A stretch of 64,000 nt of DNA, taken from Pecten maximus. Taxonomy: Eukaryota. Under the pieces are notes generated by a model. The model saw only the letters and a list, made by a program, of their open reading frames with translations. It was not told the origin of the DNA and searched no databases. The stretch is taken from NCBI RefSeq assembly GCF_902652985.1, contig NC_047031.1:17608001-17672000 (forward strand), given 5' to 3'. How positions within the stretch are numbered: the first letter of the stretch is position 1; every line of letters starts with the position of its first letter. Shown in pieces: positions 17,955-59,722 of the stretch. The position numbers were made by a program, and so were the translations under genes.

Positions 17955-18600
17955 CGACACGTTCTACGGAAGCCGAGAACGTTAACGACATTTCCACTTA
18001 GGATGTAGTTTACTTAGATAGGTACAGACATTGTAAGTTAATTACATACACCTCAACACTTTCTACGGAAGCCGAGAATGCTAATAACATTTCTACTTAA
18101 GGGTGTATGCTACCTTCAGGGATACATATACTGTAAGTGAATTACAGACATTTCATGACTTTCTACGGAAGCCGAGAACGTTAATGGCATTTCCACTTAG
18201 GATGTAGTTTACTTAGATAGGTACAGATATTGTAAGCTAATTACAGACGCCTCAACACTTTCTACGGAAGCCGAGAATGCTAATAACATTTCTACTTAAG
18301 GGTGTATGCTACCTTCAGGGATACATATACTGTAAGTGAATTACAGACATTTCATGACTTTCTACGGAAGCCGAGAATGCTAATGGCATTTCTTCTTAAG
18401 GGTGTATGCTACCTTGAGAGGTACAGGTAAATTAAGAGGATAAAAGACACCTCAACACTTTCTACAAAATTTGAGAATGTTAATAACATTTCAACTTTAC
18501 TCTGAATGTTACTCTGAGTCAGGGGTGCGACTTTGGTCTTTTACAGACACCTCAACACTTTCTACGGAAGCCAACAATGACGATGGCATTTCAACCTAGA
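17955..18600. repeat. ~100-bp tandem repeat with 199-bp higher-order dimer
   Basis: TTCTACGGAAGCC anchor at 17962, 18061, 18161, 18260, 18360, (18460 variant), 18560; units 1/3 and 2/4 nearly identical. Confidence 0.92.
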
Positions 18601-31245: not shown

Positions 31246-31382
31246 AGGATATCTAACAGTGTCTTCAGTAATACCAAATATATTTCACTCGTGAGGCTAA
31301 TATTTTGATGTTATATATATCAAAATATTAGCCACACGAGTGAAGTATATTTGGTATTACTGAAGACACTGTTAGATATTCT
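31246..31382. mobile_element. Foldback (palindromic) non-autonomous element, ~62-bp arms
   Basis: ATATCTAACAGTGTCTTCAGTAATACCAAATATA... is mirrored by ...TATATTTGGTATTACTGAAGACACTGTTAGATAT with few mismatches and a short AT loop; the arm recurs at 33751. Confidence 0.85.
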
Positions 31383-35900: not shown

Positions 35901-36220
35901 GCATATATCTTCAACCTTTTGAATATTTCACTCACCCCTAGGGCGGTAATGATGTGCCTAATTACAGTTTTAATATTTAACGTGACATTCTGTCCGTGAT
36001 TGCCTCAGTCCAGTGTACGCAGATACCTCTGTGAATGTTTCGCAATGATTTTTGCCTGCTTTTTTTCTACATTTATTATTTTGGACTTCTGTTCTCCCCC
36101 TTTTGATATTTACGAAATGAAATAATGGGACAATTGCATCTTCCAATCTCCATTCTGACATTATTTCGCCATATTTCGAGTTGTGTCAGTCCTGATCCAG
36201 ACATCAACACTTTAGACCTT

Positions 36221-36270
36221 GGTATCACTGATATGCCCTACAGGGAGGAAACAGCTATATGATGTAGTTT
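36221..36270 (+). ncRNA. Degenerate hammerhead-ribozyme-family motif
   Basis: ATCACTGATATGCCCTACAGGGAGGAAACAGCTATATGATGTAGTTT aligns without gaps to the 56-bp unit at 59147; it retains GAAA. Confidence 0.6.
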
Positions 36271-36550
36271 CATTCATAAACAGCTCTACTGTGCCTAACT
36301 GTTATTTTGTACTGAAACTTACAAATATCTCAAATATATTATGATATATATGATATATTAAATTCTTGTTTCATTCTTGAATTTTTGTTACCGGTTCACA
36401 ATATACACAAATGATTCATGTTTGTTTTTAAATTGCCAGTATCAACAAACAAAACAAGAAAATTCACTAAGAGGGTTACAGCACATTCATTATCTAATCT
36501 GATATTTTTGTCCATTTAGACTTACCTTCTGAATTCAATTTTAGCATCCT

Positions 36551-46843: not shown

Positions 46844-46948
46844 TTAACCCTGTGATATAACAGGCGGCCCCGTCCGGCGTGGCAAAAGTTTGATAAACAC
46901 ACCATTTCGTGGCGCCAGCATCGGTCTAAGAACAGAGGGCAGAGGGTC
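46844..46948 (-). CDS. P450 last coding exon (DPLPSVLRPMLAPRNGVFIKLLPRRTGPPVISQG*)
   Basis: Acceptor ttttgttttacag, phase 0, TAA at 46846-46844. Confidence 0.92.
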   Translation of the reverse strand, partial: DPLPSVLRPMLAPRNGVFIKLLPRRTGPPVISQG

Positions 46949-49900
46949 CTGTAAAACAAAAACAAAAAAAGAGCTGTTAGAAATATCAAGGAGATCCGAG
47001 TAAATAGGTCAAAGTCAGTATTGAAGTAAAAGGAGATCCGATGGAATAGGTCAAAATCAGAATTGAAGTCAGGAGAGATTCGAGAAAACAAGTCAAAATC
47101 AGTATCTTTTTAATGCATTTGTCAATTTGATTAAACCGTGTGAAATGCGTAAAAAGTTTGCTACCGAAATAATTAAAAGATATAATTTGTTGCTGCCGTT
47201 TTTACGTTAAATATGAAAATTGCAATTATTTACCTGTGTTTTACTACAGGGTACGATGACGTATTTCTGCAGTATTTTCACCATAGCTAATTTGACGAGC
47301 ATAATGCCGAACTTCATGCCCACGCAGATTCGTGGCCCCTGACCGAAGGGAATGAACATGTATGGGTGCCTCTCCCTCCTTGCAGCCGTGCTGAATCTAC
47401 GGAGTAGATAGATACTGACTTGTAAATAATTATTTAATATTATGTTAATGACATGTTAATCATATGTTAATGACATGTTAACATATAAATGTTCTGTTAA
47501 AGATATGTTAGTTGCATGTTAATGACATGTTAATATTATGTAAATGACATGGTTATGACACATGAAAGAAATGTTGATGTAATGTTAATGATGTTCGAAA
47601 CATGTTAATGATATACTGATTAAATATTGTTGACATGTACATATTAAGCGTGTTAATTAAATGTTAATGACATGTTAATGCTTAAAGCTGTATTATGAAG
47701 TCGAAACAATTAATATAGCCCACGGAAAAAAACAATCAAAAGTCAACAGAAACAACGGAAGTATCAAAAATCAGGTTGCCAACACAATCAACAAGTAAAC
47801 ACGTTCAAAATAAGAAACGAGGCAAGCATATGTAGTCCACACAAGATAAACCGTTTACAGACGAGCAGAGGAAGTATAAATGCACTCTTACTAATTTAAA
47901 AGATAATATATAAATAGAACTACAATACGTTCTGCACTTTATGTAATGACCCAACAGTACATGTGTTAATTTTTCAAACCGAAAGAACGAAACTCGACCT
48001 GCTTTTAGCGGTTCCTGAAGATAGGGCAATAAAGTGGACGGAATTGGCCCTGATAACGAACGTTACCACATCTGATGAATTCACGAACATATAGCGTCAA
48101 GACTTTGATAAAGAAAGAAGGCTTGCCACATACAGACGAAATGATAGCGTTCATTTTACAAGAGCTCTGTACTTTTCTCGATTGTAATGCTAAATGTAGT
48201 TAATGTGGATGGTCTTTCATCACCTACTTGTAAATTGACTTCAAACAAATCTTAACGAAAATTGGTTAAATTACGACCACTGTTTCATAGGAACATAGCA
48301 CGTGGAACTATAGATATTTAACTCGTTCTTTTATGCCAATTTGTTAGCGATTACCTGAATTATATCTAACAAATGACTGAACATCCTTCCTTTGTCATTT
48401 ATAGGCGATTAATATGACAGAGGTTTGCAGACAATAAAAATATTGAGTGTTAGCGGGGTGATTCAGTGCTTACGATTTTATTTCCTTCACGTTTTCAGTT
48501 CTTACGTAGAATTTTATTAGATTGAAAATAAGTAATTCAGTACTGATTGCATAATCCTTTTAGGGAGAACAGGAATGATCACGGTATATTGTCTAAGTCG
48601 CCGTTGCTATCTAATGAATTCAAACCCACATGTTATGCATGTTTTTTACAGTGAATTTATTAAACGTAGGAACGTGAATTTAAAAGGAACACGGAGCTAA
48701 ATGTTAACCATCTAGGATTAACTGATTACATTATCAGTAAAACAGCTTCGTGAAGGTAGCACGCGGTTTTTTCATTGTTTATCAACGTGTTAGGGGATTG
48801 GTAATATGTCCATGATAAACGACTTGCTTTTTAACAAAGGATAGGCCTAAAGGTTCTGGATATGATGGATACAATATCCAAAATGACTTCCTCAACGTAG
48901 TTCTCCAATAAACCATCAATCCTGCCTGTATTCATACATATAGTTTGTCAACGATGCACGTGGTCGCTATTTTTACCCTCGTCTAATATATAAGTATACT
49001 AGAGTATATATCATAGTGATAAAGGCAATTTGTCAATGAAACAAGACTCGCTATTTTTAACGTATGTGTAATGTAGACTAAAAGCTCACCTTTCAGGAAT
49101 GAACTTGTGTGGCTGAGGGAAACACTCCTCGTCCTCATAGAGTGTGTAGGCCATTACTCGAATCATCATCCCCTCTTTGAATTTTACGCCATTGATCGTA
49201 CAGTCCTTTGTACACATCCGCGCAGTTCTGAAAGACGAATTTGTAACATACTATTATTTGAACTGTAATAATGATATTCAAATTAGCATGTTTGACGTAA
49301 ACTGCATACATTTTATTGATAAAACTATATATATATCTACAAATGATTGAACGTTTGCCTAGAAAACAAATCTTATTTAACAAAATCACTGGCTATGCGC
49401 TATATATGACATTTATTTTTGTAATATGGCATTAAAAGGCGAACAGATCAGGCCCAGTTGTTATAATGGTGTTTGGCTAATACCAGTATAATAATAATTC
49501 AAAAATCCCGATGTAATCATTTTTGGTAAAGCTACATTTGACAACATTTTGTGAAACTGTAACACTTGCCAATTTCTAGCTAACTGTCTATTTTAAGGAA
49601 TTCAAACACACCGGTTTTCAAGGGGAAAATGAGGACACTATTGTCAGATTATGCGTTTATTGAAATTTTTAATTTCAATGTAGAAATTTTATATTTCATG
49701 TAAGAAAATTAGTTTTTATTATCATATTTTGTTTACCCCTAAATATTTAAGTTCTACATACTACTAGCTTTCATGAAAATGCAATGTTATTGTGCTTACC
49801 CCGGTGCGCATGGGTAGAGACGAAGGGCTTCGTTCATCACCATCTCCAAATACTCCATGCTTTTCAGGGCCGCTGCGGTTGGATGTTCCTAGAAGAGAAA

Positions 49901-52900
49901 AAAAAACGGGTAAGTAATTAAAAATAACACGCGACATATTTCTTAGGCTTGCACAGCAATAAACTTAAATACATAGATGGAATTTAATGGAAATGTTTTA
50001 AAACATGTTTTACGCCTGTAGAGAGCAGTTTTCGTATTATAATAGCACTCCGCTAAATTGTGAACGCGCTAATATAGTTTCTGTACTTTATTCTCTACGA
50101 CAGGTAATTTAGGTCCGCGAGCTGATTATTGCGCTTGCCTATTGAAATTCAGTCATGCGCAAAAAATTGCGTGTGCCATTATGTCCCGAGAAGAGTAGAT
50201 ATAGGCCTGTATCACATTCGTGTATGTATGACTACAGATTTTTCTGTCTGTATATGATAGTAAAATTAGACTAAAATCACGGCTTGTCTAATGTTGATTA
50301 TTCATTGAATATTTTCGAAAAAGACATGGACATCTTTCTGTTGCTTAGGAAACTAGTTGCCTTTTACGGACTTTACTTACATTGAGTCCGCATTGCCCGA
50401 AAACTTCGTCAAATGCTTTCTGTTGTTCTGGCTGGTTCATAGCGAGACAATGCACTATGAATTCGAGAGAGGCATTAAGAGTCCCGCTTCCTCCACCAAC
50501 CAGTGAATGCAGATGTGCAATGATCTCCTCGTCATCGAGTGACCGACGAGCCAATTTGCCCTCCTCATCGCGACTCCTGATTGTGCCATTGATAATGTGG
50601 TTGATGAGGTTGTCATTCATTTTCACCGAACTCTTTTCCTGCATCTAGAAATGAAAATAAAATATTGTTAAATAACCACACAGATAAAAGTAATTATTTT
50701 GCCTAATTGTTTCTTTTGAAAAGAATTTCTGTGGGTGGTGGACACTTTTATAGTGCTGTCACACTGAAACACTTACCTACACACTGAGACGTGACACCCT
50801 GACAAGTCATATAAAATAAACAATTTGATTTAAATATAAATTTAGCAGTAGTAGTCAGGAACAAAACCGCACTATACTGCTGTTTCATCCTTTTACATGG
50901 CACCAGCTATGTCATCAGTAAATGGCATTTTTCATTAGAACAATATAGCATATTGACATTAGAAAACAGTAATTGTAATTCAAAATCATTAAATGAGGGT
51001 AAACACGGACAAACATGAAGACTTGCATCGTGATCCTCGAAAAATACAAGATTACCTCTACGTGTTTCTATATGGCAAACTTCTTCTACATCATCGCATA
51101 TAAATATAGGTAAAACCGAGTAATGTCACCCCTTCCAAATGTGCACTAGGGTGGGGATGGAGTGGGATGGGACTTCCAGCGTTAGAATAGGTATTTCCCG
51201 AAGGTTCGAACACATCTATCTCCATACCACACAAGGAATGAGAATATTTTCAAATCTGATAGTGATATCATTTACAACATTTCCCCGTGGTTTCCATCTA
51301 TATAGGCAGGAGAAAAAGAAGAGAAAGGAAAACTTGTTACCTCAATCTCCTGTCTAGTGTTCTGTACAAGATTTCTCATCCTTTCTACGTGCGCCATATG
51401 GACACGCTTATGCTTGTAGTCAAAGATTTTCAGGAATGGGGTCAGGCTTCCGTAAACTCCTGCGGGAAGAATTTAACTAACTGTTATATATTGATGAGAA
51501 TATCTTTATTTCTGTAATACGTTTCTAAATCCAAAGATTATTTTTATTTATAAAAGGAATTTTTAGATTAAATCATAAATTATTATTATGAAAAGGTCTT
51601 GATTTAAAAAGTATTAATAAAAAATACCTAGAGATTGTATCAGATTTGCTTTGTATGATTTTAAAGTAATTATATTAGTGTCTTATCATAATGATGTTAT
51701 TTAAATTGCGTGCATGAATAATTCAATGACAAAACATCGTCAGTTGCTTCATTGGCATGGAATTACTTTCTTATGTAATAAGTAACCTTACTAGCAATTC
51801 CTGTTAAGGGGTTTTCTGTAGATGCAGCATCCAGAGTCTCCGTCATAAACTGGTAAAGAGTGGCATCGGAGTTGTCCATACTATTTACCTCATAGTTGAA
51901 TGCTGACAAGGCGAAGGCGTCCAACGTGAATCTGTCCAGCAATCTATCGGGGAAAGTAAGCAGAACTAATAAAAATCGGGGTATTGAGGAAAAGGGGTGA
52001 TAGCGAGGCGTGATGGATATCCCAGTTGCCTTCCACATAGGGTATCGAGGTTGTATGCCTAAATTGGTCGTGAAAAATTAATTACCAGATTACGAGATGT
52101 CATGTCGCTTTGAGATTTGCAAACAATTCCGTCATATTTGAGGTAAAGTGATAAATTTAAGCATTAATTGGGCTAAGCTTATAAGTTTTATATGGATAAA
52201 TCGGTCTGTAATCAAAACATAGTTTAGTTTCAAAACAATTGAACTGTCTTGCATTTTTAAAGCATTTATGTTTTCATAAAATTAGAAACATTTCAAATAC
52301 TAACAGATTGATATCATTAAGAACTTACGAGGCGATATTGAAACCATCTGGATTACTCTCAACCATCTTAGCAAGCTTTGCTAGGAAAATATCGGAGGTG
52401 GCCTTGATCTTCTCAACTGCCTGTAACATAGTATTATATATATATATATATATAATTATATCGATCAATAAATTACATAAATACAGCAAAAAATCTATCA
52501 GGAAAATAAAATCACAGATTTTAATTTCCTTTTATGCAGTAGATATGATAAGTCCCGAAATCGTATTCAGGGCGCCATCTTTCTGTTAACCCCTGGCCAC
52601 TTTTCCCGGTAAAATATGCACTGAAATTGCCCGTAAGTCGGGAACTACCAAGCAGGCACTGCCCTTAGATGATTAAATAGGTTGAGAGAATAGGGAAAAG
52701 TATATGCAACCCTGTGGCTTCTATCTTATTAACATATTGAGAGTAAGGTCATCTCAAAAACTAATCAGGTGAAATACGTCGTTAACAAGATCTGCATTTA
52801 AAATTACAAAACAAACTAAATACATTAGATGATGAAACCCACATGGCATAAAACGAAAGATATACGTGTTTACCAAGACATCTGGTATAATCCAAAAACT

Positions 52901-55695
52901 AGTATTTTATTAATACTAGAATATATTGAACCTAATAAACCGGAAGTGTAAAAATCCACGACGTCGGTCAAATTCGTTTTCTTGTCTTCGAAACGCAAAC
53001 CATGTTTAATTATTGGACTCATTAGCACATTTAGCTAATTTAAGGAGGTAAAACTTGTATGGGACCAAGATGGCAAAGTTACATTTCGCTGAATTTAAAT
53101 GTCATATCACAGGCGTATTGACAGGGAAGATCATCCAGTCTATTTCTTGTCACTTTATGTGTCTCCTATATTTCATTTCATGTGTTGCTGAAGTAGGCAG
53201 GAGTTAAATTGAGTAACCTCGTGCAATCATGTAATGGATAAATCAGGTACATTTCTTACACCCAACTCGATGATGTTTAGTACACGTACGCCGAGATCAG
53301 TGATAATGTTGTTATGTTTGTCTAAGTTCCCGAGATAGGATCATCATCTCCATACCATCATGTGAGTGTTATACCATTACACTAAAGATAAATCCAGTTT
53401 CACAGTTGTTTTGCCTGTTACCATATATGTACACTATATTGTAACCTATAATTCCTTTGTGGTTAGGACAATAGATTTTATTCTTCTTTTTCTCTCTGCT
53501 TCTTCATATTGTTTGTAGGTTGATGTATATATGTTTTACATGTTTTATTACTAGCCATTGTGTTAAATGCTGCCTTTGCTTACTTTCTTGACAAATCCAA
53601 CAAATATTCTCAATAGTTTTATCTCGTTGTTACATAAATTATACTGATTGCAATTTTTGCGTCTTTAATTTTGAGGTAGGTATTTATACGTAGGATCCCG
53701 TGTGGTACTCAACGCCATTGAAGTGTAGTGTTCCTAGATGCTTCAATTGTGATTTTAAAAGGTAATACTGGTAGTCCTGTAAAAATGCACCTACTTTCTC
53801 CATTGATGCTCTGTTGAAGGCTGCAGCAACAATGGCTCGTTGATGTTTCCATAAAGACCCGGATGTAGTAAAAAGGTTCAGGTGATCAGGATAGTACGTA
53901 AACGGGTTGTACACCTGAAATTAGAAACATATTTCCATAAACACATAGCAATTACGTGCTATTAATACAAGGGAGATAACCGGCTTTTCTGTTGTCTGAA
54001 CCCAAAACATGCCATACAGTTTAGAGTCTCTCGACCTAGCGGTCAAGCCGTTCTGTACTGACCCATCATTAGCATAAAAAAAATACCTACCGGTCGTACG
54101 TCGAACTTGTCGAAATGCTTGACCAGTATCTCCTTTGTCATTTCGGGATCGTTGACCACAATGCTAGGTCGGAAACCTTCAAAGAACCTGTAAAAAACAA
54201 ACAGTCAGTGTGGACATATATGTTAGTTAGGCAACACAGAGAATCAATTTGCATAAATTTACATAATTTATCGAGCGATAACCAAACAATATCAAGCGTG
54301 TTTATAGGACACGTATACACGTATTTCCCCTGTAGAAACGGACATGTTTTCATGAAAGTTGAATCTTTCTCCCGGATTTAACTCAAAAAAACAAATTTTC
54401 TTTTCAATATCCCTTCGTGACTTTATTGCCAACCACTTTTATGTAGAGAGACATATATAGAGATATATACTTATAAATTCATAAAGATATACATGTATAT
54501 ATACATTATCTTTAATGAACAATACATAAAAAAGTTCCATCCCCGGTTTTCCCATTTCAATGTGGGTTGCATATCTCTATGTTGGAGAGGCTTTATGTGA
54601 TCATTAATGCGTGCAAAAGCTTAGGTTAGTGCTGATTTATTCAAAAGGCAAGTTAAATTACATTGCACTGAGTATTTTTCAATATCTGAAAGATTGCAAA
54701 TTACTTGTCTTTTTGTGAAATAAAATTACATTAAAGAAATCTGTTTGAGTAAGACTTCACTTTCATTACAGCACAACACTTAAGCGATATGTTGAGTAAC
54801 CACGTACAGACAGACAAATGTTCAACGCCTGGCTGAATGTTTCCCAAGACTTATGGACCAGCTCTTCGATAAACGTAAGAGTGAGTGCTGGGCACGAGTT
54901 AATTGATTTTCTTTGAAGGTAAAAAATACCTATTAACATATATACTCCTCTGAGACTTCCCACCGGGACACCCATATCACTGTACTTACTGTTACTTATA
55001 TGTGTTAATGCAATGATTTAACCAATGCCAACATTTAAGCATTAATTATACCATGAGGTAGGGCGATCAATTTAGCTGATTCTTTCAGATAACATATTTT
55101 AATAGACATTATGGCAAGATATGCAGAGCATTTAAGTCACATGGAGATAGGGGGAAGTATTTCAAGGCAAATATATAGGAAGTTGAATGTTGATATAATA
55201 TATAATAATATGTTATCATATAATCAGTAGGGCATCCAATGAATTCGCCCATGGAATACTTATGCGTATACCCTTAGTGCTATTTACCCTGGAATGTTTT
55301 TATTGGCTGTATCGTGAATTGAAAATGGCCCTGCAAAATGACCGTTGGACTTTAAAACTGTCAAAGTTTTCATGTCTTATATATAGTTTTAAGATTGGTT
55401 TCATGTACATGCAATATGAAATGAATACACTTATAGTAATGAATATTATCCTAATAGGGGCAGCGTATATTATTGTTTATATTTATGTAGCTGATATATA
55501 TGTACACAATATATGTACGGCCCACATAATTCAAAAAAAATAATAATCAAATGAATAAATATGTAAAAGATAAAGTATTAGATATATAAATAATGAATTA
55601 AATAAATGGCTGATATCTGATATCGTTTAAACATGCTCCTACCCGTAAATGTTTCCATATTTCTTTCTGAACTCTTTGAAGACTTCCAACGGGTT
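46844..55695 (-). CDS. Cytochrome P450, CYP3 clan (CYP3A-like); span of 11 reconstructed coding exons, 5' end unresolved
   Basis: Spliced ORF of 1392 nt without internal stops, all introns GT-AG with consistent phases; motifs WKHQR (WxxxR), EALR (ExxR), FIPERF (PERF), [10 protein letters not shown] (heme Cys). Confidence 0.96.
47234..47396 (-). CDS. P450 heme-binding exon ([30 protein letters not shown]...CSKTQ)
   Basis: 163 nt, tag/ and /gtaaat; FxxGxRxCxG signature at 47318-47347. Confidence 0.97.
47440..47680. repeat. Low-complexity ~11-bp repeat (ATGTTAATGAC), intronic
   Basis: Direct reading. Confidence 0.8.
49090..49227 (-). CDS. P450 exon (TARMCTKDCTINGVKF...FPQPHKFIPER)
   Basis: 138 nt, tttcag/ and /gtgagc; PERF motif across the junction. 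Confidence 0.96.
49800..49888 (-). CDS. P450 K-helix exon (EHPTAAALKSMEYLEMVMNEALRLYPCAPG)
   Basis: 89 nt, ttctag/ and /gtaagc; ExxR motif. Confidence 0.96.
50381..50644 (-). CDS. P450 I-helix exon (MQEKSS...LDDEEIIAHLHSLVGGGSGTLNASLEF...QCGLN)
   Basis: 264 nt, phase 0-0, ttctag/ and /gtaagt; overlaps ORF 50345-50644. Confidence 0.95.
50863..50922 (-). ncRNA. Degenerate hammerhead-family motif inside P450 intron (sense to the pre-mRNA)
   Basis: Minus strand: CTGATGA-catagctggtgccatgtaaaaGGAT-GAAACAGCAGTATAGTGCGGTTTT; core boxes present, stem II disrupted. Confidence 0.4.
51341..51459 (-). CDS. P450 exon (VYGSLTPFLKIFDYKHKRVHMAHVERMRNLVQNTRQEIE)
   Basis: 119 nt, phase 1-0, ccgcag/ and /gtaac. 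Confidence 0.9.
51792..51943 (-). CDS. P450 exon (LLDRFTLDAFALSAFNYEVNSMDNSD...LTGIA)
   Basis: 152 nt, phase 2-1; E-helix FTLD motif; overlaps ORF 51763-52038. Confidence 0.94.
52329..52420 (-). CDS. P450 exon (AVEKIKATSDIFLAKLAKMVESNPDGFNIAS)
   Basis: 92 nt, phase 0-2, ttacag/ and /gtaagt. Confidence 0.92.
53795..53914 (-). CDS. P450 C-helix exon (VYNPFTYYPDHLNLFTTSGSLWKHQRAIVAAAFNRASMEK)
   Basis: 120 nt, phase 0-0; WxxxR motif. Confidence 0.95.
54091..54187 (-). CDS. P450 exon (FFEGFRPSIVVNDPEMTKEILVKHFDKFDVRP)
   Basis: 97 nt, phase 2-0; typical CYP3-clan DPE..KEILVK.F segment. Confidence 0.96.
55643..55695 (-). CDS. P450 exon (NPLEVFKEFRKKYGNIYG)
   Basis: 53 nt, phase 0-2, tttcag/ and /gtagg; KKYG motif. 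Confidence 0.93.
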
Positions 55696-55856
55696 CTGAA
55701 ATAGATAGAAATAACAATGCATAGAAAGAAGACAGATATATTAGCGCTATTAAAACAATTAAATATTACCTCCTATGATCAGGTATGGGACATTTAAACC
55801 TCACTAACCACATTTTCGCATTCGGTCTATTTTGCGTTTTTGAGATGCCATTTTTA

Positions 55857-55903
55857 GCATCTCTGAAGAGTCCCAAATTGACGAACCAGATACATGTTGT
55901 AGA
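55857..55903 (+). ncRNA. Degenerate hammerhead-family motif
   Basis: CTGAAGA-GTCC-CAAAT-TGAC-GAAC-CAGATACATGTTGTAG aligns without gaps to the array unit; retains G12. Confidence 0.55.
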
Positions 55904-56436: not shown

Positions 56437-58933
56437 TGAAGGCGGCTGCATGATGCAGTTTAATTCATTTTAGCTCTACTGTATATGTAACTCTCAATGT
56501 GTATTGAATGTTACTAATATCTTATATATCATCTGAAATTATTTGAATAACTGAATGAATATTTTGTTTAGAAACATAAGAATGAATACTATCCAGAGAT
56601 GACCGGATACTTGTCTCATAATATTGTATTATACAACACAATAACCCTGTTAAACATGCTAAACATGCTATCATTCCCAATGCTGACGTCATCAGAAATA
56701 TTGTGATGATATCACGGTAAAAGGCAAAAACAGTCGATATTTTTTTGTATATGATTAGAACTACATGTTTATTTATTTTTTGTGTGAAAACACATGTATT
56801 ATACATAATTAACATGATTCATGATAAAAGCAATATCAAAGTTGTCTAATAACATATCACGGTCGATAAGAATTCCTTTGAGTGCATGCGTACAGGGTAT
56901 TTAAATTGATTATCGCTACATGCTCCTACTCCACCGTATCCCATGGCGATGACCACAAGTTCAGTTATCATCAAATTATCCAGAAAAAAATAGTCCACAC
57001 CAACAGTGTAAAAGATCTATAGATATGAATGACGTAGGATCGAACGAACACGGACAGAAGAAAGGGCGTGGTCGAACCCACGAGCCATGAAGAGGGTGTG
57101 GTTATGTTGTTCTGCCGATAACATGATGTATATCTCAAAATGTAAAACATGGCTGATAAGGCACATATATGTTTGAATTCATGACTTATCATTTGGGCTA
57201 GATTTTGCTAAACTGCATTTGGTTAATTATACTGTTCTATTTTTAGATTAATTCAATACACTACTGTTTATTTGATTTCATGTTTCACTGATATTAAGTC
57301 ATATGTAATTTATGAAAATACTTTACCGTAATTAAATCAATTGAAGTTTTATGTATTTGCTTCTGAGCACGATAACATAAGAAGATTAGAATTTTTGATA
57401 TCTTAACTCTAAAATGATATCAATGCATTTTAACATTAAACAATCTAGCAAATGAAACTAATGACCAGTATAATTTTTTTATTGAAATTCAAGCCCATTT
57501 CAAATATTTATTATTTTCGGTGATACTACATATTGCGTTTTTAACGTTGATTTTTAAGATACAAATGGATATATGATTCTCCACTTTCGTTTTAAGGTAT
57601 TTACATTAAAGCAAACAATATTTCTGCAACCCACCCATAAAAACGAAAAATGATGTAAAATCTTATTTTCTGTAATATTTTAAAAGTCATTGTACTAATA
57701 TATAGCTATACGTGACCAAAAACATGTAAACAATCACAAAAATGCTAAGTATCTCTTGTCAAGACAGTGGGGTCACTAATACAATATTTTGTTAGATTTA
57801 TCATCATTTCTTTAAACAACACTTCGGAATAAGCGATAAACAAACAAAATCACACGGTTGAATAAAATCGATGTATTCAATCAATGTTTTCCATAATATC
57901 TATAATATATATTAGGCTGACAAAGAAGAATTATATTTAATGGATTAAAAGTGTGATAAAGCTGAAGAAGTTAATGTCCTTTTTACTGCGGTATTCAGAT
58001 GACTAGATAAGTAGCCAGACGAAACAGAGAAGGGTAATTTGACAGACAATCAGGGTAAAATGATGTCTTCTTAACATGCCAACACCCGGGATGCCTAGAG
58101 GCAGGTGAAAAAAGCATTGTCAACTTAGCTTGTCATGTTCTCAAATCAGTACCCAGAAATCCTTCCAAATATCATATCGAAATTTAATGTGATAAAAGAT
58201 GAACCTCTCGAGTTTATGAACTCATTAGATACATAATTATATCTTCTTTTTCAATTGTAAATTAAAATAACATTATGTTCATGAACTAATTGTTAAAAGC
58301 AATGAGAGAATATTTCTTACGATAAATTCGCATAAAGCTGACAAATCTTTGACTTTTGGCTACACCTGACAGCATAACACAAAAAAGTAGGTTATAAGAG
58401 GCTAAACCACCCCATACATTCTCCTAATCATCGTTCTTATATTACATCACAGACACAGGTACACGCACACCCGGCCGGATGCAGCACTCGTTACAGCAAA
58501 TCACCTGACAAAATACCCATAACAAGGATATACCTGCACGACATACTGATATATATTCCTCTCTTCTGTCAAAACATTCGAAATAGTCTAAATACCATCT
58601 CTGGTGTGTTTACAATGTTAAAAGAATGTAAATCGTAAATAGGTCTCCAAGTAAACTTGTATTTTGTTTTTAATGTTTTCTTACTGCTTTTTCTTTCTTT
58701 TATATATCAGTATACATAGTGTCTTTATATTACTTATTTTGTCGTTGAAGCAGAAGGCGCTTTGTCCTCCGGCGCACCTGGTCTGATTATCCTTGTACTT
58801 TCTAGGTATAAATGCATATTTGGTCTCATTTATTGCTTATGAGTTGGCTATGGTTTCGTTATTAAATCGGTATTCGTGTTGTTGTAGAAAATGAAGTTTG
58901 TTATATATCGACCTGCACGTGACTATCTCTTAC

Positions 58934-59003
58934 CCAATCAGACCAAGGAAAAGTCATTGTCTTCGTTAGCATGTTTATATTCTTTGTTCTAATTTCCGGG
59001 TTC
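58934..59003 (-). CDS. Candidate upstream P450 exon containing a possible start codon (MLTKTMTFPWSDW)
   Basis: tttgtatag/ acceptor, TGG/gtaaga donor, AAAC-ATG at 58972; phase 0 joins in frame to exon 55695. Confidence 0.35.
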
Positions 59004-59146
59004 CTATACAAACGTATATCATTTACTTGTGGAATTTGTTAAATACATAAGGAGGGTACGTGAATTCATAGCAGTCTTTATATTAGACATTTGTTTAGGT
59101 TTTGCGTTTCCAACAACACCTTTACGAATTGGCACACTTTTTGTCT

Positions 59147-59482
59147 TTACCATCACTGACGAGTCCTAGAAGGACCAAACAGCTGTATGACGCAGTTTTA
59201 TATTACCATCACTGACGAGTCCTAGAAGGACCAAACAGCTGTATGACGCAGTTTTATATTACCATCACTGACAAGTCCTAGAAGGACCAAACAGCTGTAT
59301 GACGCAGTTTTATATTACCATCACTTACGAGTCCTAGAAGGACCAAACAGCTGTGTGACGCAGTTTCATATTACCATCACTGACGAGTCCTAGAAGGACC
59401 AAACAGCTGTGTGACGCAGTTTTATATTACCATCACTGACGAGTCCTAGAAGGACCAAACAGCTGTATGATGTAGTTTTATA
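59147..59482 (+). ncRNA. Tandem array of six 56-bp minimal type I hammerhead-ribozyme-like units (G12C variant)
   Basis: Unit: CATCA-CTGACGA-GTCC(TAGAA)GGAC-CAAA-C(AGCT)G-TA-TGAYG, giving stem I, core, stem II, palindromic stem III and a GUA cleavage triplet. Confidence 0.85.
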
Positions 59483-59584
59483 TTCATTATTCGACATATA
59501 CTGTATCTACTGTACACTTCTTATCGTAACTTACTTTATTCATGCGTCACTTGTACACACTTTCATACATAATGTGTCTTCGTT

Positions 59585-59722
59585 AGTATGATTCAGTGAG
59601 ATAGCACTATAAAGTCGACACCGGTTTCGCGCTATCACAAGGAGACAAACTCCAATACATACGCTACACACACTCTGAAGATGTCCTTAAATGACTATAA
59701 CTGTTGGTAGGATCTTAAACAA
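59585..59722 (+). mobile_element. Degenerate SINE 3' fragment (possibly Meta-domain type)
   Basis: TCAGTGAGATAGCACTATAAAG motif plus a tail GTCCTTAAATGAC...CTGTT...AGGA..TTAAAC similar to the family A tail. Confidence 0.4.

What the first reader, a model, noticed from the sequence alone, without database searches (positions are those of the whole stretch)
59156..59470. All six units carry C at catalytic G12, with further core mutations: a disarmed or variant ribozyme array
Seen in sequence: GAAA is CAAA in all six copies. Copy 3 also has G8A (CTGACAA), copy 4 has G5U (CTTACGA), and copies 4-5 have GUG at the cleavage triplet. Established knowledge: G12 is the general base, G8 and G5 are essential, and NUG is not cleaved. 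Inference: the founder was probably inactivated before DNA-level tandem amplification, because dispersed relatives keep G12. Less likely, this is a natural core variant or a palindrome-pairing partner or decoy for active family members in trans.
Basis: partly seen in the sequence, partly recalled or inferred. Interest (0 to 1): 0.7.

Follow-up and report, generated by a model that had tools for sequence, protein, structure and literature searches.

The report
Dead hammerhead repeat in P450 intron
Six back-to-back copies of a self-cutting RNA motif lie backwards inside an intron of a cytochrome P450 gene, all with the same change at the key catalytic letter; they belong to a genome-wide repeat of thousands of copies in which that change is common, and they are likely an inactive, decaying copy rather than a new kind of ribozyme.

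Summary
Every sequence detail is confirmed: 6 x 56 bp, C at hammerhead position 12 in all six units. The array is one locus of a genome-wide family: 7,703 units within two mismatches, mostly 49-bp tandems inside a dispersed retrozyme-like element. "Dispersed relatives keep G12" is only partly true. Units exact elsewhere carry G 566, A 171, C 74, T 36; C12 occurs at 32 loci on 14 contigs. The catalytic core is no better conserved than other sites, and 25 of 102 sampled arrays have no intact core. This array's linker is also predicted to misfold the ribozyme. It lies antisense in a P450 intron, and 3 of 4 read sets show a one-unit allele. Best reading: a dead unit copied at DNA level. Unexplained: G12C is about 3.5-fold commoner than other G/C transversions (12 of 51 arrays). 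The scan's notes showed no earlier report of this family. Ordinary; the hammerhead-only 49-bp minisatellite is the more interesting by-product.

The parts
59083..59146 (+). Degenerate leader of the parent element, upstream of the first hammerhead
   Evidence: Profile of 17 dispersed copies matches 59083-59201 at E 1e-16; the leader alone was not assignable to flank class A or B
59147..59202 (+). Unit 1: type I hammerhead cassette with G12C (59176), palindromic helix III, GUA triplet, plus 56-bp-type linker
59203..59258 (+). Unit 2, identical to unit 1 (G12C at 59232)
59259..59314 (+). Unit 3: G12C (59288) and G8A (59273)
59315..59370 (+). Unit 4: G12C (59344), G5U (59326), GUG triplet (59355)
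59371..59426 (+). Unit 5: G12C (59400), GUG triplet (59411)
   Evidence: Rfam Hammerhead_3 59348-59409, below gathering score
59427..59484 (+). Unit 6: G12C (59456), intact 3' arm of helix I, runs into the element's tail
   Evidence: Rfam Hammerhead_1 59430-59473; matched with 0 differences by an X5 contig
59474..59510 (+). 3' tail of the element (flank class B); its first letters form the linker of the 56-bp unit
   Evidence: profile match to 59510; tail alignment and class
59099..59418 (.). 320 bases absent from a second allele, leaving one unit; 5-letter overlap at the joint
   Evidence: joint 59098->59419 in contigs of X1, X4 and X5, not X7
46877..55698 (-). Eleven matched coding exons of a cytochrome P450 gene; the preceding exon lies about 4.4 kb beyond the window (L195:4441-4551), so the array is inside an intron of about 12.7 kb, antisense to the gene
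   Evidence: Pfam p450; tblastn of P0004 and P0017
55784..55967 (+). Second, single-unit, decayed copy of the same element in the same intron
   Evidence: profile E 5e-17; Rfam Hammerhead_1 55857-55893
56442..56529 (+). Tail fragment of the same element in the same intron
   Evidence: profile E 7e-14
36118..36343 (+). Further single-unit, decayed copy of the element
   Evidence: profile E 2e-29

Best explanation
The array is six tandem copies of a hammerhead cassette from a genome-wide repeat family, all with C at position 12, and it is likely a catalytically dead minisatellite that grew by DNA-level slippage or unequal exchange from one unit that already carried G12C. Steps: (1) Shown: a dispersed non-coding element of about 360-400 bp carries one type I hammerhead with a palindromic helix III. 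(2) Shown: at many loci the cassette alone is repeated head to tail, mostly at 49 bp, here at 56 bp with tail letters as linker. (3) Predicted: a 49-bp junction folds as a complete type III hammerhead, while this 56-bp junction misfolds. (4) Shown in a sample: units decay at core and non-core sites alike, and position 12 takes A, C and T at many loci. (5) Inferred: C12 is an old allele in part of the family or a recurrent change, and this locus fixed it by local homogenisation. (6) From the literature, untested here: G12C abolishes cleavage. The array has no likely role; the host pre-mRNA carries its antisense strand.
For: Family size: 7,703 units within two mismatches. Position 12 in otherwise exact units: G 566, A 171, C 74, T 36; C12 at 32 loci on 14 contigs (my grouping, matches within 5 kb joined). 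Shared leader and tail and a 49-bp period across 129 merged segments; two monomers 364 bp apart in L117. Core sites are not better conserved than non-core sites in 51 arrays (p=0.48), and 25 of 102 arrays of 3 or more units have no intact core. No second allele travels with C12 across 45 arrays. Sister 56-bp arrays 65 kb and 286 kb away have unrelated flanks and are broken at A13: 0 of 10 units in L192 read GAAA, and in L191 only 1 of 50, whose first box is broken. Junction fold: helix I pairing probability 0.0 and 0.06 here against 0.91 in one 49-bp junction. One-unit allele in 3 of 4 runs. Antisense in a P450 intron. G12C listed among core changes that remove turnover (PMC11875169, passages); G12A about a million-fold slower (PMC2553840, passages).
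Against: G12 is the most often changed core site (20% of 675 units). G>C there occurs in 12 of 51 arrays against 0-7 (mean 3.5) at the other 19 G/C sites (Poisson p=0.0003). CpG decay does not explain this: C7, G8 and C11.1 are changed in only 7-9% of units. The subfamily account is weak: C12 in 5 of 11 class B against 3 of 30 class A arrays, p=0.022, post hoc, second best of 147 alleles tested. All three well-preserved 56-bp arrays lack an intact GAAA. The samples were chosen by pattern matches and are not random. The second 49-bp junction folded (L039) had two changes in helix I and gave 0.0. No cleavage assay exists.
Confidence: 0.76

Rival explanations
1. Disarmed units are favoured at the level of the element. 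A transcript of an active array would cut itself into 49-nt pieces, so arrays rich in G12C, G12A or A13G would be the ones copied whole to new sites by a Penelope-type reverse transcriptase.
For: Position 12 is non-G in 281 of 847 otherwise exact units. G12C excess. Dead alleles are shared by arrays on many contigs. The three main 56-bp arrays all lack a working GAAA. The 49-bp junction is predicted to fold as a full hammerhead.
Against: Other essential sites (C3, U4, G5, A6, G8, A9, A14) are not changed more than expected for their base. Intact share does not fall clearly with array length (rho -0.23, p=0.11). Many long arrays keep G12 throughout, e.g. L034 25 of 25 and L073 30 of 30. No partner element was found in 50 GIY-YIG loci.
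Confidence: 0.1
2. C12 arises again and again by template switching. The letters just upstream of the first unit are an imperfect inverted copy of the helix II-GAAA arm, with a G opposite G12, and copying across this hairpin would turn G12 into C. This concerns the origin of C12 and is compatible with the best explanation.
For: Many leaders end in an inverted match to the arm (listing), and in L002 the leader is predicted to pair with it (1 of 3 folded). C12 units share no other marker across 45 arrays, as recurrence would give. One neighbouring change expected from a second upstream template is commoner in C12 units (4 of 44 against 3 of 97 arrays).
Against: C12 units are not nearer the leader in 38 mixed arrays (mean relative position 0.50, p=0.93). 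Two other expected co-changes are not enriched. The window's own leader now has T at the templating place. The idea was formed after seeing the data.
Confidence: 0.2
3. C12 units are a functional core variant, or act as a pairing partner or decoy that supplies helix III to active family members in trans or in cis.
For: The 8-letter palindrome of helix III is intact in all six units and pairs between units with probability 0.98-0.99. G and C units are mixed in many arrays. Such ribozymes are known to work as dimers (PMC4209133).
Against: No compensating change. Further lesions accumulate in 3 of 6 units. The linker is predicted to pair with the next unit's catalytic box. G and C units show no fixed order. 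Five units are missing from another allele. G12C is reported inactive in a different hammerhead.
Confidence: 0.04
4. The host selected the mutation to protect a transcript from self-cleavage.
For: The array lies inside a gene, and all three family copies in that intron face away from the gene.
Against: Because the array is antisense, the P450 pre-mRNA does not contain the ribozyme strand, so G12C gives it no protection. An overlapping plus-strand transcript was not tested.
Confidence: 0.03
5. The C is an assembly or consensus error.
For: No raw reads were available, and units 1-5 were not resolved by contigs.
Against: 74 exact C12 units genome-wide; an X5 contig with 0 differences over 59444-59640; the units differ from each other at other sites.
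Confidence: 0.02

Closest known systems
Metazoan non-LTR retrozymes (PMC7229834: passages and section 14; bioRxiv 10.64898/2026.07.22.740005: parts 1-3 of 5)
   Same: Non-coding, low-GC repeat with a type I hammerhead; the parent element has a 364-bp head-to-tail dimer in L117, like the 350-390 bp mussel repeats; dispersed monomers and tandem multimers. The preprint reports consensus units of 51-972 bp, treats them as minisatellites growing by unequal crossover, and found 8 of 9 tested dimers inactive.
   Different: Here the repeated unit is the ribozyme cassette alone (49 or 56 bp) nested inside the longer element. The window's core is mutated in every unit. Circular RNA and cleavage were not tested.
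Minimal type I hammerheads of Penelope-like elements (PMC4209133: parts 1-2 of 4; PMC8557442: passages)
   Same: Short palindromic helix III that needs a second copy; thousands of variable dispersed copies; a short tail after the ribozyme; Penelope-type GIY-YIG frames with their own hammerheads exist in this genome.
   Different: No reverse transcriptase or GIY-YIG frame next to the family, and no match of the family profile in 50 GIY-YIG loci. The natural core variant described there is a compensated pair (U3-A8); G12C here is uncompensated.
Hammerhead satellites of newt, schistosome and cave cricket (seen only as cited in PMC7229834 and PMC6155905, passages)
   Same: Tandem DNA repeats whose neighbouring copies complete helix III as a dimer.
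   Different: Those units are a few hundred bases and are transcribed and self-cleaving; this array's unit is 56 bp with a mutated core.

Membership tests
Active hammerhead ribozyme | Invariant core CUGANGA and G12-A13-A14 | tested here: not met
   G12C in 6 of 6 units; G8A in 1, G5U in 1
Active hammerhead ribozyme | Cleavable triplet (not ending in G) | tested here: inconclusive
   GUA in 4 of 6 units, GUG in 2; the general NUH rule is recalled, and a CUG triplet is called non-cleavable in PMC11875169
Active hammerhead ribozyme | Three helices around an unpaired core | tested here: not met
   In two junctions folded, helices II and III form (0.98-1.0) but helix I does not (0.0, 0.06), and the linker pairs with the next catalytic box; prediction only
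Active hammerhead ribozyme | Rfam gathering score | tested here: not met
   29.2 of 48.5 bits and 23.7 of 34 bits
Active hammerhead ribozyme | Self-cleavage | not testable with these tools
   needs an assay
Non-LTR retrozyme | Type I hammerhead motif in head-to-tail, non-coding repeats | tested here: met
   49-bp and 56-bp tandems; 364-bp dimer in L117; no long open frame tied to the family in 209 loci
Non-LTR retrozyme | At least two consecutive complete hammerheads (the preprint's definition of active) | tested here: not met
   0 of 6 units complete in the window; other arrays of the family keep complete cores, 77 of 102 with at least one
Non-LTR retrozyme | Expressed as circular RNA | not testable with these tools
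   only contigs were available
Penelope-like element pseudo-LTR | Lies at the end of an RT plus GIY-YIG open frame, or is homologous to such an end | tested here: inconclusive
   0 matches of the family profile in 50 fetched stretches, drawn from 150 GIY-YIG hits of 300 candidates; the profile works on the window
Minisatellite of variable length | Tandem units of high identity with length differences between alleles | tested here: met
   6.0 copies at 96%; one-unit allele in 3 of 4 runs, though by a deletion that also removes part of the leader

The most novel reading that the evidence does not exclude
The family is a hammerhead-only replicon. Its 49-base unit is about the smallest possible retrozyme: each junction builds a complete ribozyme that would cut transcripts into 49-base pieces. 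Arrays then spread whole only when disarmed, so that loss of the catalytic G12 is selected by the element itself. The window's array would be such a self-disarmed traveller.
Probability: 0.1. Interest if true: 0.65.

Novelty: new member of a known kind. Interest (0 to 1): 0.24.

Why it matters
As flagged, it matters little: it is one dead copy among thousands. The useful by-products are two. First, a large family in which the hammerhead cassette itself has become a 49-bp minisatellite, at the low end of reported retrozyme unit sizes. Second, an unexplained excess of one inactivating change. If that excess were selected, it would show that tandem ribozyme arrays spread better once disarmed, which bears on the open question of what hammerheads do in Penelope-derived repeats. 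The family gives many natural G12, C12 and mixed dimers for a direct assay.

Tried and rejected
CpG decay as the cause of G12C: rejected, the other CpG sites are not elevated. A private founder mutation: rejected. Segmental duplication of the locus as the source of the sister 56-bp arrays: rejected, no flank or P450 homology in the 14 stretches fetched. Search for a haplotig carrying the other allele: none among 40 matches. The letter at position 12 in the one-unit allele: not resolved, as the read tables did not list it. Partner element: none in 50 GIY-YIG loci. First flank classification was confounded by unit remnants in the exemplars and was replaced. The contrast 3 of 44 against 6 of 15 (p=0.006) included single-unit loci; the fairer figure is 3 of 30 against 5 of 11. 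Co-change search was too loose to read (976 matches, first 100 listed). One search included array sequence by mistake and returned arrays, not leaders; its loci were still used. Expression: no RNA holder listed. Family units, some in 49-bp tandem, lie in contigs of one RNA library (X16) and one guessed RNA run (X13), which does not show transcription. Metagenome scan: 0 matches. One search timed out. [quoted passage not shown] Seven literature searches showed no listing on a natural G12C variant or a hammerhead-only 49-bp minisatellite; most subscription journals are not covered, and no supplements were read (those of the preprint are closed and may list units of this kind).

Full report
Observation. 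The array spans 59147-59484, six units of 56 bp at 96% identity. All six read C where the Rfam hammerhead consensus has G12. Unit 3 has G8A, unit 4 G5U, and units 4 and 5 a GUG triplet. Both Rfam matches are under the gathering score. One contig of run X5 matches 59444-59640 without a difference, which supports the C in unit 6 in a sample other than X1's, though with only 12 letters on its left.

The family. The window lies in a 918-Mb animal genome (G000, contig C17); no call established the species. The 30-letter core, exact at the other 29 positions, has G at position 12 in 566 places, A in 171, C in 74 and T in 36. Joining matches within 5 kb, I count C12 at 32 loci on 14 contigs and T12 at 22 loci. 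With two mismatches allowed there are 7,703 units, a lower bound. I merged 180 fetched loci and the window's stretch into 129 segments; where units are in tandem the period is nearly always 49 bp, with up to 66 units seen. These loci were picked by pattern or flank matches and are not a random sample. The arrays sit inside a dispersed element with a shared leader and tail. A profile from 17 copies gives an element of about 400 bp, and L117 has two monomers 364 bp apart. Of 29 loci picked by the leader, 18 had a detectable unit and 4 had a 49-bp tandem. The window holds three more decayed pieces, all on the + strand.

How a unit would work. Each unit is a type I hammerhead whose helix III is an 8-letter palindrome, the kind that needs a second copy (PMC4209133, parts 1-2 read). 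In a 49-bp tandem the junction is predicted to fold as a complete type III hammerhead: helix I 0.91, II 0.96, III 0.98 in one L004 junction; a second junction, from L039, had two helix I changes and gave 0.0. In the window, helices II and III form, but helix I has probability 0.0 and 0.06 in the two junctions folded, because the tail-derived linker pairs with the next unit's catalytic box. So the array is predicted to be disabled twice over. G12 is the general base (PMC6155905, passage). G12C is among the core changes said to remove turnover (PMC11875169, passages), and G12A slows a full-length hammerhead about a million-fold (PMC2553840, passages). None of this was assayed on these units.

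Decay. In 51 arrays on C1-C5 chosen for holding one exact G12 unit (675 units after filtering out those with indels or over five mismatches), core sites were not better conserved than non-core sites (p=0.48 within the 30-letter core). Of 102 arrays with three or more units, 25 have no intact core. C12 units share no second derived letter across 45 arrays. The 56-bp junction recurs at two arrays 65 kb and 286 kb away on C17 and in decayed form on C3 and C16, with single matches on C7 and C8 that I did not fetch. The two C17 arrays have unrelated flanks and are broken at A13 instead: 0 of 10 units in L192 and 1 of 50 in L191 read GAAA, and that one has a broken first box. Contigs from X1, X4 and X5, but not X7, skip 59099-59418 and leave one unit; its letter at position 12 was not resolved.

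Setting. Pfam and tblastn place eleven P450 exons on the - strand at 46877-55698 and the preceding exon about 4.4 kb beyond the window. The array is therefore in an intron of about 12.7 kb and antisense to the gene, so the pre-mRNA does not carry the ribozyme strand.

What does not fit. G12 is changed in 20% of the 675 units, more than any other core site, and G>C occurs in 12 of 51 arrays against 0-7 at the other 19 G/C sites. CpG decay does not account for it. Flanks split into two classes without conflict (52 A, 24 B, 46 unassigned), and the window's tail is class B. C12 is in 5 of 11 class B and 3 of 30 class A arrays not chosen for C12 or A12 (p=0.022), but this is post hoc and does not survive 147 tests. 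Template switching from an inverted match in the leader is possible, but C12 units are not nearer the leader in 38 mixed arrays, and two of the expected co-changes are absent. Selection for disarmed arrays would predict excess at other essential sites, which is not seen. The origin of the excess stays open.

Comparison. The parent element fits metazoan non-LTR retrozymes (PMC7229834, passages and section 14; PMC7761336, passages). A 2026 preprint reports units from 51 bp upward, growth as minisatellites, and 8 of 9 tested dimers inactive (10.64898/2026.07.22.740005, parts 1-3 of 5). Penelope-type frames with their own hammerheads exist in this genome, but 0 of 50 fetched GIY-YIG stretches matched this family, so the partner is unknown. 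The window's array fails the tests for an active hammerhead. Seven searches listed nothing on a natural G12C variant or a 49-bp hammerhead-only array; the most relevant paper on Penelope hammerhead variants was not held, and no supplements were read. The scan's notes held no report on this family.

Verdict. Observation confirmed; interpretation partly supported. It is most likely a dead, locally amplified unit of a large decaying family (0.76). New member of a known kind, interest 0.24. The boldest reading not excluded, a hammerhead-only 49-base replicon that spreads once disarmed, has probability about 0.1.

Noticed in passing
G000 genome-wide, e.g. L034, L073, L083, L087, L126: A hammerhead-only 49-bp minisatellite with at least 7,703 units; each junction is predicted to build a type III hammerhead from two type I halves. 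Many arrays keep G12 in every unit.
   Followed up: partly
L191:3056-5870 (C17, 65 kb beyond the array) and L192:3857-4409: Sister 55/56-bp arrays of 50 and 10 units with A13G or a deletion in GAAA; unrelated flanks suggest local hopping or conversion of the array.
   Followed up: partly
window 46877-55698 (-) and L195:4441-4551: Cytochrome P450 gene, about 50% identical to unnamed protein P0004 over matched exons; three family copies in its long early intron all face away from it.
   Followed up: partly
window 58600-59100: A second haplotype differs by 26 letters and 5 gaps in about 500 bases (X5 contig), so the two alleles are old.
   Followed up: no
window 59574-59662: Fragment of another high-copy dispersed repeat right after the element's tail; also in L201, L203, L204.
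   Followed up: no
window 58740-58800: Short dispersed repeat with about 40 matches genome-wide at 77-90% identity.
   Followed up: no
L243:19 and 3659; L249; L257: GIY-YIG element with a 792-residue frame flanked by two identical hammerhead motifs of another family, as in Penelope pseudo-LTRs.
   Followed up: no
window 31272-31356: AT-rich hairpin with a weak Rfam mir-2763 match (32.9 of 50 bits); a similar sequence lies in L015, so it is probably the end of an inverted-repeat element.
   Followed up: no
window 1-1159, 6717-7135, 9866-12811, 17957-18599: Unrelated minisatellites with periods 31, 39, 33 and 100/199.
   Followed up: no
L095 and L096: Identical stretches on C3475 and C12, probably a duplicated haplotig; both were counted as loci.
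   Followed up: no
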